64,000 bases of DNA, taken from the human T2T-CHM13v2.0 reference genome, Homo sapiens. A program made the translations under genes and the position numbers. The stretch lies in assembly GCF_009914755.1 (NCBI RefSeq), contig NC_060940.1. One strand, given 5' to 3'. The stretch's first letter is position 1. Every line of letters starts with the position of its first letter. The notes below the pieces were generated by a model. That model had not been told where the DNA came from. It saw only the letters and a list, made by a program, of their open reading frames with translations, and made no database searches. Positions 27,701-30,700 of this stretch are shown piece after piece.

Positions 27701-30700
27701 CTCACAGTTCTGGAGGTTAAAAGTCTGAAACCAAGGTGTCAGCCCGGCCATGCTCTCTCTGAAGACTCTAGAGGAGGGTCCTCCCTGGCCCCTTCCTGGC
27801 TTCTAGCGGTTGCCGGCAACCCCTGGTGTTCCTCAGCTTGTAGATGCATCCCTCCAGCCTCTGCCTCAGTCTTCACACTGCCTCTCCTTATGGGGCTATG
27901 TGTCCAAATGTTCTGCCTTTTTTTTTTTTTTTTTTTTGAAAAAGTGTCTTGCTCTGTCGCCCAGACTGGAGTGCAGTGGTGCGATCTCAGCTCACTGCAA
28001 CCTCCGCCTCCTGGGTTCAAGCGATTCTTCTGCCTCAGCCTCCTGAGTAGCTGGGACTACAGGCACGTGCCACCACACTTCACTAATTTTTTGTATTTTT
28101 GGTACAGATGGGGTTTCACCGTGTTAGCCAGGCTGGTCTTGATCTCCTGACCTCATGATTGGCCCTCATGATTACAGGCGTGAGCCATTGCACCCAACCA
28201 TGTTCTGCCTTTTATAGAGACACAAGTCATTGCATTAGGGCCCACCCCAGTGCAGTATGACCTCATCTTAACTTAATGACATCTATAAAGACCTTATTTC
28301 CAAGTAAGGTCACATTCACAGGTACCCAAGGTGAGGACTTCAACCTATCTTTTTTGCAAGACACAATTCAACCCATAACTCTGTTCATAATTCTTGGCAC
28401 TGAGGGAGTTCACTGAGAATTTGAATGAATGACTGTTGAAATGCCTGCGATTCTCAGCAATCCTACCTTCTATTGACCTGAAGAGGGAGGCATTAGGCAA
28501 AAAGCTAGGGCACAAAAATCAGTGCCCAAGCACATACCTTTCCTGGGAAGAATCAAGTCAACATTTTGGTGGGAATCAATAGACCCACTTTCAATTTTCT
28601 CCAGCTGGCTGTTCAAAATTCCGATGTCTCTGCAATACGTTTTAACGATCTGTTAAAGAGATGAGGCTTTTCTTAGCTGTGAAATTATGTCCAGCTCCTT
28701 TTAAGCTAGACGGCATCGGTCCAACTGATGATGCTTTCCACAGGGCTACAGAGAGGAAATGCTGGAAGAGAAAGGAGTTATCTGACTCTGGGCTGGAGGT
28801 TGTGTTTTTCTAGGGGAGGAAGCGCAGACGGTTGGTCTGCGGCCACTCCATCATTCTGCAGCTGTGGACTGCAGAGTGAGGGTCATTATTCAGCTCGTTA
28901 ATCAAACTTCACTTTGACCAAATGTTTTTGTAACCTCTCCATTCCCAGAATAATCGTCTAAGAGAGGCCTAGAGATTTATGCTTCTGTGCAATGCAAAAG
29001 GGCAGAATTTAAGCCAGAATGACAGAACTGTGGCCAAGATTAGCTCGAAGGCTACCTCTCTGCCCAGGTCATTGCTCAGAGCTTTCTGCAGTGAGGAATC
29101 TTGTTTCCATGTTGAGGATTCCAGCAAGGTCAGGCAACAGGATTGGAACGATAGCCACAGAAGCACACCAGCTCCCTAACTCCCCTGCAACCTATTAGCT
29201 GTCTGAGTCCCTCAAATCCCCATGTGAGGTTGTATAAGGTCACAAGAGTGAAAGTCTTCTTTAAAAGCAAATTCTGTATCGTTTTCAGATCAACAGAGTG
29301 CAAAAATATCCCTCATCTCTCTGAACCTAGAATCAGTCACGTTTTCATAGGACTTCAACCTTTCTCCTTTGAAAAACCAGATGATGTCATATCTTGCAGG
29401 TTGATTATCGTAAATACTTTAAAAAACAGGAGGTGTCATATCTTGCAGGTTGATTATCGTAAATACGTGGCGGTAAATCTGGCAACGTCACATCCCCATT
29501 ATGATGAGGCTGGAAATGTTCTAAACATGGGCACATCCATTGTGGAAAAGGGGAAGACAAAGTATGTGATTTTTAAGATCCCTGCCACAGTACCAGGTAG
29601 GCCACTCTGGGGAATTGAATAAAACACAAACAACCAAGTGTGGCTTCTTCTGAAGAGTTCTGTTTTTCGTTGATGACACAAGATCCAGTGTGGTACTTTC
29701 TCCCGTAGATTATTGAGGTGGACCATGAAGTCAGTACTTTGCTTTAGAAGAGAAGAGGAGATGCTGGGATTCCTCTTGGAAGAAAGAAATCCCTTTACTA
29801 TTCTAATTTCCTTTTATTTAGGCTCCAGTTTATTATTTTATTAATTTATCTACCCATCTACCATCCATCCATCCATCATCTATTTACCATCCAACCATTC
29901 CTTCATCTACCATCCATCCATTCATGCATCTACTCACCGTCCATCTATCCACCATTCATTCAGCTACTCACTATCCATCCACCCACCTACCCACCATTCA
30001 TCCACCTATCCATCACCCATCCACCATCCGTCCACCCATCCACCTATCCACCCCTTATCTAGCCAGCCACTCACCATCCATCCATTCATCCATTCACCCA
30101 CCTACCCATCCACCCACACACCATCCCTCCATCCATCCATCTACCCACTATCCATCTACCCACCCATCCACCCATCCACCCACCATGAATCCATTCAACC
30201 ATCTACCCATTCTCCCATCCATCCACCCATCCACCATCCATCCATTCATCCATCCACCCACCACCCATCCACCATCTATCTACCCACCCACCCGCCCACC
30301 CATCATGAATCCATTTATCCATCTACCCATTCTCCCATCCATCAACCCATTCACTTACCCACCATCCATCCATCCATTGAGCTTCCCACCCACCCATCCA
30401 TCCATCATTCATCCATCCATCCACCCACCCATCCACCATCCATCCATTCATCCATCCACCCACACACCATCTACCCATCCATCCGTCCACCCACCATCCA
30501 TCCACCATCCATCTACCTACCCATCCACCCACCCACCATGAATCCATTCATCCATCTACATGTTCTGCCATCCATCCACTCATCCACTTATCCACCATCC
30601 ATCCATTGAGCCACCCACCTGCCCATCCATCCATCATTCATCCATCTACCCACCATCTATACACCCACCATTCATCCATCTATCCATCTACCATCCATCC

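What the first reader, a model, noticed from the sequence alone, without database searches (positions are those of the whole stretch)
29367..29466. Tandem duplication of the exon 5 splice acceptor creates an identical upstream acceptor that leads to a premature stop
Seen: the 33-mer TGTCATATCTTGCAG|GTTGATTATCGTAAATAC occurs exactly twice, at 29385-29417 and 29434-29466 (49-bp offset). The preceding 17-18 nt are also similar (ctttgaaaaaccagatga versus ctttaaaaaacaggagg), so the whole intron 4/exon 5 boundary was duplicated. Only the downstream AG (29447-29448) gives full-length BCO1. Using the upstream AG (29398-29399) adds 49 nt and reads [17 protein letters not shown] then TGA (29451-29453), truncating the protein before all four Fe-binding His residues. 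The upstream copy has the nearer pyrimidine run (tttctccttt, 29361-29370), and extra AGs lie between the copies. Established: a premature stop this far upstream of the last junction triggers NMD, and the first AG after the branch point is usually favoured. Inference: this may be a splicing/NMD rheostat that lowers provitamin A conversion, tunable by nearby variants or splicing factors. It also resembles the tandem-duplication-of-AG|GT model of intron gain, but 49 nt is probably too short for recursive re-splicing.
Basis: partly seen in the sequence, partly recalled or inferred. Interest (0 to 1): 0.8.

Follow-up and report, generated by a model that had tools for sequence, protein, structure and literature searches.

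The report
Duplicated splice acceptor in BCO1
A 49-base stretch spanning the start of exon 5 of human BCO1, the enzyme that makes vitamin A from beta-carotene, is present twice in a row, leaving an exact spare splice site in the intron that would truncate the protein if used; whether cells use it could not be tested here.

Summary
Window 29369-29417 and 29418-29466 are head-to-tail copies of a 49-nt unit, 44 of 49 identical, with the last 33 nt exact. The unit spans the intron 4/exon 5 boundary of BCO1. Splicing exon 4 to the upstream AG (29398-99) adds 49 nt and stops at TGA 29451-53, nine codons before the first iron-binding His. The sequence is unique in the genome. It is the only clean local duplication in the 64 kb.

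Three things are new here. All five differences lie in the 16 nt just after the copy junction (P 0.002-0.013). AG-exclusion logic places the branch point of the annotated acceptor in that same segment. The intron is ancient and single-copy in the BCO2-like and RPE65-like paralogues.

The "splicing/NMD rheostat" idea is untested. No RNA data or other vertebrate genomes were on hand. None of the 7 RefSeq transcripts starts an exon at 29400. No paper on it was found.

Best reading: a tolerated duplication in which the downstream copy carries its own branch site and the upstream copy is an intronic pseudo-acceptor with a low leak. Moderate interest.

The parts
29369..29417 (+). Upstream copy of the 49-nt unit: 31 nt of intron (A-run, weak pyrimidine stretch, CAG) plus a copy of the first 18 nt of exon 5
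29418..29466 (+). Downstream copy, holding the annotated acceptor and the true first 18 nt of exon 5
   Evidence: hub gene table (exon 5 = 29449-29596)
29398..29399 (+). Upstream AG (pseudo-acceptor). An exon starting at 29400 adds 49 nt and runs into a stop
29447..29448 (+). Annotated acceptor AG of exon 5
   Evidence: hub gene table
29418..29433 (+). Diverged junction segment holding all 5 differences between the copies (at 29420, 29426, 29430, 29431, 29433)
29421..29426 (+). A-run at -28 to -23 of exon 5: inferred branch-point region of the annotated acceptor
   Evidence: Inference; not mapped
29372..29376 (+). Matching A-run of the upstream copy, at -28 to -24 of 29400: inferred branch-point region of the pseudo-acceptor
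   Evidence: Inference
29359..29370 (+). Unbroken 12-nt pyrimidine run just before and overlapping the start of the upstream copy
29379..29380 (+). Further upstream AG with a conventional context. An exon starting at 29381 stops at 29402-04
29428..29432 (+). Two AGs (29428-29 and 29431-32) only 14-17 nt upstream of the annotated acceptor AG. Exons starting at 29430 or 29433 stop at 29451-53
29451..29453 (+). TGA reached when the upstream AG, or either intermediate AG, is used
29400..29448 (+). The 49 nt between the two acceptors: formally a GT...AG unit, 33% G+C
26944..27091 (+). Exon 4; its donor is AAG|GTATCA
   Evidence: hub gene table
29449..29596 (+). Exon 5; encodes the first metal-binding His (BCO1 residue 172)

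Best explanation
A 49-bp tandem duplication in the BCO1 lineage (copy junction at 29417|29418) copied a complete small 3' splice module: an A-run, a weak pyrimidine stretch, CAG, and the first 18 nt of exon 5. The downstream copy is continuous with the rest of exon 5 and is the working acceptor. Its branch point is inferred to lie inside the duplication, in or just before the A-run 29421-29426. That is downstream of the upstream AG, so the search for an AG from that branch never meets 29398-99. The two nearby AGs (29428-29, 29431-32) are too close to the branch to be chosen. The upstream copy is therefore an intronic pseudo-acceptor. It is used only when U2 engages its own A-run (29372-29376) or a site further upstream. 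Each such event gives a stop codon and an NMD-eligible transcript. I expect this leak to be small, with no evolved regulatory role. Shown: the anatomy, the frames, the stops, uniqueness in the genome, and the age of the intron. Inferred: the branch-point positions, the size of the leak, and neutrality.
For: Duplication and frames. Transcripts: per the hub's gene table, the selected RefSeq transcript uses 29449, and the listed exons of the other transcripts (29512-29596, 32851-32940, 34968-35176) include none starting at 29400, 29381, 29430 or 29433. Branch-point placement: the annotated acceptor has only 14 AG-free nt upstream, the shortest of BCO1's ten acceptors (the others have 19-58). AGs can be bypassed only when close to the branch site: less than 12-15 nt according to passages of PMC1431707, and the high-risk zone begins more than 6 nt downstream of the branch point according to the abstract of PMC9284458. 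This places the branch at about 29416-29426, where pentamers with U at -2 lie at -28 and -27. No dispersed repeat is involved. No significant RNA structure favours either copy (z -0.24 and -1.29). The paralogues have a single acceptor at the same codon, so the duplication adds to an old, working intron.
Against: The two modules are almost the same. They are identical from -15 to +18. The upstream copy is equal or slightly better in pyrimidines (9 of 17 against 8 of 17) and lies next to an unbroken 12-nt pyrimidine run. Its A-run sits at the same distance from its AG. So sequence alone gives no strong reason for the downstream copy to win. Classic duplicated-site experiments (recalled, not read here) tend to favour the site nearer the donor. 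NMD would hide upstream-AG transcripts from annotation. The five differences are clustered (P 0.0023, or 0.013 scan-corrected; best joint P under a simple neutral clock 0.0085). That does not fit plain neutral drift and could mean selection on branch-site choice. No RNA evidence of any kind was available.
Confidence: 0.55

Rival explanations
1. Constitutive drain. Both modules are competent, and the upstream acceptor takes a substantial share (10% or more) of intron 4 splicing. A sizeable part of BCO1 pre-mRNA is then lost to NMD in every expressing tissue, lowering enzyme output without being regulated.
For: The acceptor contexts are identical from -15 to +18, and the upstream copy has equal or better pyrimidine content and an adjacent 12-nt pyrimidine run. 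The matching A-run sits at the same distance. The stop is NMD-eligible, so steady-state annotation would under-report this form.
Against: None of the 7 RefSeq transcripts in the hub's table uses 29400, although rare forms are listed. The upstream copy carries only 18 nt of true exon sequence. No paper reports such an isoform.
Confidence: 0.22
2. Regulated AS-NMD switch. The choice between the two acceptors is set by splicing factors or nearby variants, and it has been kept by selection to tune provitamin A conversion.
For: The intronic 33-mer is exact while the neighbouring 16 nt hold 5 changes, which would fit constraint on the upstream copy. The changes fall where the branch sites are inferred to lie.
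Against: There is no evidence of use, of conservation or of regulation. The clustering is equally explained by error-prone synthesis at the duplication junction, since the changes lie directly 3' of it. Searches for BCO1 with sQTL or splice terms found nothing relevant.
Confidence: 0.06
3. Two-step removal. Intron 4 is first spliced to the upstream AG. The rebuilt donor (exon 4 end plus GTTGAT) is then spliced to the downstream AG, removing exactly the 49 nt and giving normal mRNA. This would be the duplication route to a new intron, or a recursive site.
For: 29400-29448 begins with GT and ends with AG and is exactly the inserted length. It is the only offset within the shared 18 nt that gives GT...AG (reading). 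A potato RdRp gene gained an intron from a duplication crossing an intron-exon boundary in just this way (PMC4974935, abstract). Mature mRNA could not reveal this route.
Against: The rebuilt donor AAG|GTTGAT departs from the donor consensus (recalled) at +3, +4 and +5. 49 nt is below the 65-nt threshold of human introns. Of 15 validated ultra-short introns, 12 were markedly G-rich (PMC4463651, abstract), whereas this unit is 33% G+C.
Confidence: 0.03
4. Haplotype-specific or polymorphic allele (not exclusive of the others). The duplication may be present in this assembly but absent or variable in other human genomes, making it a structural variant with possible effects on carotenoid status.
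For: Only one assembly could be examined. The exact 33-mer in an intronic copy fits a young event.
Against: Five differences in the remaining 16 nt argue against a very recent simple duplication, unless they arose in the event itself. Nothing on such a variant was found in the papers searched.
Confidence: 0.12

Closest known systems
Tandem genomic duplication across an intron-exon boundary (potato RdRp intron gain; PMC4974935, abstract read)
   Same: The duplicated segment crosses an intron/exon boundary, so the acceptor, the putative branch site and a short exonic piece are all present twice. A GT in the exonic piece of the upstream copy and the AG of the downstream copy frame a possible new intron.
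   Different: In potato the new intron was detected in transcripts. Here no transcript evidence could be reached, the unit is only 49 nt, and the candidate donor is weak. The simplest outcome is that the old intron is 49 nt longer.
AG dinucleotides inside the AG exclusion zone, and cryptic acceptors (PMC9284458 abstract; PMC1431707 passages)
   Same: Extra AGs lie upstream of an authentic acceptor. The outcome depends on their distance from the branch point. Possible results are a cryptic acceptor or silencing of the true one.
   Different: Those are mostly single-base pathogenic variants. Here the extra AG comes with a full copy of the acceptor context and probably its own branch site, and it sits in a reference genome with a working gene.
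Alternative 3' splice site use coupled to NMD (unproductive splicing)
   Same: An upstream acceptor adds a stretch that is not a multiple of three and brings a stop more than 55 nt before a downstream junction.
   Different: Use, conservation and regulation, the features that define a regulatory AS-NMD event, are all untested here.
Tandem alternative splice sites and NAGNAG acceptors (PMC8055015; search listing and a supplement search only)
   Same: Two closely spaced acceptors compete for one exon.
   Different: The spacing here is 49 nt. As recalled, NAGNAG and other tandem acceptor sites lie much closer together and share one branch site and one pyrimidine tract. BCO1 and BCMO1 do not occur in the 7 supplement files held.
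Recursive splice sites and ultra-short introns (PMC4463651, abstract)
   Same: An AG|GT juxtaposition could rebuild a donor after the first splice.
   Different: Recursive sites, as recalled, serve very long introns and have strong rebuilt donors. Here the remaining piece is 49 nt, A/T-rich, and has a weak donor.

Membership tests
Tandem duplication spanning an intron-exon boundary | Two head-to-tail copies with no spacer | tested here: met
   29369-29417 and 29418-29466, spacing 49, 44 of 49 identical
Tandem duplication spanning an intron-exon boundary | The unit holds the AG|G boundary with intron on one side and exon on the other | tested here: met
   31 intronic and 18 exonic nt in each copy (hub gene table)
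Tandem duplication spanning an intron-exon boundary | A local event, not a dispersed repeat family | tested here: met
   One match, itself, in the 3.1-Gb assembly. The paralogous acceptors have no local repeat
Intron gain by tandem duplication (AGGT model) | The duplicated segment contains AGGT | tested here: met
   CAG|GTTGAT in both copies
Intron gain by tandem duplication (AGGT model) | The segment from the GT of copy 1 to the AG of copy 2 is spliced out as a separate intron | not testable with these tools
   Needs lariat or intermediate reads. Mature mRNA is the same by either route
Intron gain by tandem duplication (AGGT model) | The site had no intron before the duplication | tested here: not met
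   Paralogues on contigs C11 and C1 have an intron at the same codon, so intron 4 predates the duplication
Regulatory AS-NMD event | The stop lies more than about 50-55 nt upstream of a downstream exon junction | tested here: met
   TGA 29451-53 lies 143 nt before the exon 5 donor, with six further junctions. The distance rule is recalled
Regulatory AS-NMD event | The alternative junction is seen in RNA and rises when NMD is blocked | not testable with these tools
   No RNA-seq on hand. No RefSeq exon starts at 29400 (hub table)
Regulatory AS-NMD event | The alternative site is conserved across species | not testable with these tools
   No other vertebrate genome is held. A scan of the prokaryote genome collection found nothing, as expected
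Recursive splice site | The rebuilt donor is strong | tested here: not met
   AAG|GTTGAT mismatches the consensus (recalled) at +3, +4 and +5
Recursive splice site | The remaining intron segment is long enough to splice | tested here: inconclusive
   49 nt and 33% G+C. Human introns of 37-65 nt exist but are rare and mostly G-rich (PMC4463651 abstract)
Carotenoid oxygenase family (Pfam RPE65, PF03055), for the host gene | Profile match and conserved first metal-binding His in exon 5 | tested here: met
   Exon 5 alone scores E 4.4e-4 and 19.9 bits, below the 27-bit whole-protein cut-off because it is a 49-aa fragment. It aligns to RPE65 residues 166-211, with its His at position 15 opposite residue 180. 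The ligand role is recalled

The most novel reading that the evidence does not exclude
The upstream copy is a working acceptor that diverts a meaningful share of BCO1 pre-mRNA into NMD, with the share set by the five-base difference in the branch-site segment or by splicing factors. If the duplication is limited to primates or humans, or varies among people, it would be a built-in brake on provitamin A conversion. It could then contribute to poor or variable beta-carotene conversion in humans.
Probability: 0.08. Interest if true: 0.7.

Novelty: new member of a known kind. Interest (0 to 1): 0.35.

Why it matters
BCO1 makes the central cleavage of beta-carotene, the step that forms retinal. Any constant loss at the intron 4/exon 5 junction would lower enzyme output. 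An exact spare acceptor 49 nt upstream of the real one, with its own likely branch site, is also a natural test of how the spliceosome chooses between near-identical 3' splice sites. The question can be settled quickly with public RNA-seq and primate assemblies. As things stand it is a well-defined structural oddity with no shown function.

Tried and rejected
- Tandem Repeats Finder on 29000-29800: 0 rows, so no support from that tool.
- RNA structure that might hide one AG: folds of 29330-29500 and 29378-29468 gave z -0.24 and -1.29 (76 and 15 of 200 shuffles fold as well). The two acceptor octamers pair with each other, which treats both AGs alike. Rejected as a discriminator.
- Dispersed repeat or transposon origin: rejected (one match, which is the window itself).
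- Intron gain for intron 4 itself: rejected.
- Literature: BCO1 + splice + "exon 5" gave 2 papers, both irrelevant. BCMO1 + splice gave 34 papers, of which 25 were listed and none was on this feature. Passages of two of them were read and were irrelevant. BCO1 + sQTL gave 2 papers, neither about BCO1 splicing by title or abstract. One search was too broad to be useful.
- Supplements of the tandem splice site catalogue: 0 occurrences of BCO1 or BCMO1 in the 7 files held. The full catalogue may lie elsewhere.
- Scan of the prokaryote genome collection for a 24-nt stretch of the acceptor, on the off chance of host-derived contigs: 0 matches.
My acceptor and branch-site tables are simple counts against consensus motifs that I recalled.

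Full report
**What is there**

Reading 29200-29660 and searching 29000-29800 for direct repeats shows one family. A 49-nt unit is present twice, head to tail, at 29369-29417 and 29418-29466. The copies are 44 of 49 identical, and the last 33 nt (29385-29417 and 29434-29466) are exact. According to the hub's gene table, exon 5 of BCO1 starts at 29449. Each copy therefore holds 31 nt of intron ending in CAG and 18 nt of exon. Tandem Repeats Finder returned no row.

The feature is not chance:
- A scan of the whole window for direct repeats of 25 nt or more within 150 nt gave 7 families. Six are internal repeats of interspersed elements or a low-complexity tract at 29838-30650, and the seventh is this one.
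- The 16 diverged bases still match 11 of 16 in register. Only 3 of 2262 other 16-mers of intron 4 reach that level.
- The 141-nt region has a single match, itself, in the 3.1-Gb assembly. It is not part of a dispersed repeat.

**Consequences for the reading frame**

Exon 4 ends in phase 0. I started exon 5 at each AG in the region in turn.

| Exon start | Extra nt | Outcome |
|---|---|---|
| 29381 | 68 | stop at 29402-04 |
| 29400 (upstream copy) | 49 | six native residues, eleven foreign, TGA at 29451-53 |
| 29430 | 19 | TGA at 29451-53 |
| 29433 | 16 | TGA at 29451-53 |
| 29449 | 0 | full 547-residue protein |

The TGA at 29451-53 lies 143 nt before the exon 5 donor, and six further junctions follow. 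It therefore meets the usual position rule for NMD (the rule is recalled). Exon 5 alone matches the Pfam RPE65 family (E 4.4e-4). It aligns to residues 166-211 of solved RPE65, with its His at position 15 (BCO1 residue 172) opposite RPE65 residue 180. That this His is the first iron ligand is recalled.

**History**

The exon 5 peptide finds two paralogous exons in the same genome, on contigs C11 (E 1.4e-5) and C1 (E 0.007). Both match from query residue 1. In both, the match is preceded directly by an acceptor AG at the same codon. Neither has a local direct repeat. Intron 4 is therefore older than the split of the three paralogues, and the duplication arose later, in the BCO1 lineage. It did not create intron 4.

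No other vertebrate genome was available, so the duplication could not be dated or checked in other people. A long-shot scan of the prokaryote genome collection found nothing.

**An uneven pattern of differences**

All five differences lie in the first 16 nt of the unit. In the downstream copy these are 29420, 29426, 29430, 29431 and 29433, directly 3' of the copy junction at 29417|29418. The chance of this is 0.0023 if the "first 16" is specified in advance, and about 0.013 for any clustering as tight. I also tried a simple neutral clock in which the intronic 33-mer is free to change. No age gives a joint probability above 0.0085 for five changes in 16 nt together with none in 33 nt.

Plain drift is therefore a poor fit. 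Three explanations remain:
- error-prone synthesis at the junction during the duplication;
- selection on this segment afterwards;
- gene conversion keeping the 33-mer identical.

I cannot separate them without the ancestral state.

**Where the branch point should be**

I compared BCO1's ten acceptors with simple counts. The exon 5 acceptor is the poorest in pyrimidines (8 of 17 at -20 to -4; the others have 9-15). It also has the shortest AG-free stretch upstream (14 nt; the others have 19-58).

Passages of Gooding et al. [quoted passage not shown] They also state that AGs within about 12-15 nt of the branch site can be bypassed. The abstract of Bryen et al. (PMC9284458) puts the zone where an AG is dangerous at more than 6 nt downstream of the branch point and more than 5 nt upstream of the acceptor.

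For 29447-48 to be chosen despite the AGs at 29428-29 and 29431-32, the branch point should lie at about 29416-29426. That region holds an A-run with U at -2 (pentamers at -28 and -27). It falls inside the diverged junction segment and downstream of the upstream AG.

The upstream copy has the matching arrangement. Its A-run is at 29372-29376, an AG at 29379-80 lies too close to it, and its own CAG is at 29398-99. The duplicated unit therefore looks like a self-contained module of branch site, pyrimidine stretch and AG, now present twice. This is inference from motif and spacing rules. No branch point has been mapped.

**Which copy wins**

Sequence alone does not decide:
- The contexts are identical from -15 to +18.
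- The upstream copy has 9 of 17 pyrimidines against 8 of 17, and it abuts an unbroken 12-nt pyrimidine run at 29359-29370.
- RNA folding gives no significant structure (z -0.24 and -1.29). The one notable helix pairs the two acceptor octamers with each other and so treats both AGs alike.

The evidence for the downstream copy is the annotation. The selected RefSeq transcript uses 29449, and none of the exons listed for the other six transcripts starts at 29400, 29381, 29430 or 29433. The listed start at 29512 is preceded by CT, so it is a transcript start and not an acceptor. This is steady-state evidence, and NMD would thin out the upstream-AG form.

**Two-step splicing**

The 49 nt between the acceptors begin with GT and end with AG. 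Splicing to the upstream AG and then removing these 49 nt would give normal mRNA and leave no trace in it. A potato gene gained an intron from just such a boundary-crossing duplication (PMC4974935, abstract).

Here the rebuilt donor would be AAG|GTTGAT, which departs from the consensus at +3 to +5 (consensus recalled). The unit is 49 nt and 33% G+C. Human introns below 66 nt are rare, and 12 of 15 validated ones were markedly G-rich (PMC4463651, abstract). I rate this route at about 3%.

**Literature**

I found no paper describing this duplication or an upstream-acceptor isoform.
- BCO1 + splice + "exon 5": 2 papers, both irrelevant.
- BCMO1 + splice: 34 papers, 25 listed, none on this feature. 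Passages of two were read and were irrelevant.
- BCO1 + sQTL: 2 papers, neither on BCO1 splicing.
- The tandem splice site catalogue's 7 held supplement files do not mention the gene.

Subscription journals and large data supplements are outside these searches.

**Verdict**

The functional part, a splicing/NMD rheostat, remains a hypothesis with no support from anything I could reach.

My best reading (0.55) is a tolerated duplication. The downstream copy works through its own branch site, and the upstream copy is an intronic pseudo-acceptor with a small NMD-cleared leak. The main rival (0.22) is a substantial constitutive leak. A regulated switch (0.06) and two-step removal (0.03) are less likely. 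Whether the duplication varies among people is open (0.12, not exclusive of the others).

It is a new member of a known kind, a duplication across an intron-exon boundary. Interest is moderate because the deciding tests are cheap and the gene matters for vitamin A nutrition.

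Noticed in passing
window 29838-30650: About 800 nt of CCAT/CCAC-like low-complexity repeats in intron 5, starting roughly 240 nt after the exon 5 donor (families D3 and D4).
   Followed up: no
window 29379-29380: This AG has the most conventional upstream context of the five AGs in the region: TTCAA at -24, 11 of 17 pyrimidines and 28 AG-free nt. Yet no listed exon starts at 29381. Using it gives a stop at 29402-04.
   Followed up: partly
window 29410, 29459, 29473: Three donor-like GTAAAT hexamers within 70 nt. Two come from the duplication and one lies just after it in exon 5.
   Followed up: no
window 29393-29400 and 29442-29449: The acceptor octamer is self-complementary if G-U pairs are allowed, so the two copies pair with each other in the minimum-energy fold. 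The fold is not significant (z -0.24 and -1.29).
   Followed up: yes
window 27089-27097: The exon 4 donor AAG|GTATCA departs from the donor consensus (recalled) at +4 to +6, so intron 4 has a weak-looking site at both ends.
   Followed up: no
window 29512: The alternative-transcript exon start listed by the hub at 29512 is preceded by CT, not AG. It is a transcript start inside exon 5 and not an alternative acceptor.
   Followed up: partly
L003 1490-1510; L004 1630-1645 (minus strand): The BCO2-like and RPE65-like paralogues keep the intron at the same codon and begin the exon with similar bases (GTAGAT and GTTGAT), each with a single acceptor.
   Followed up: yes
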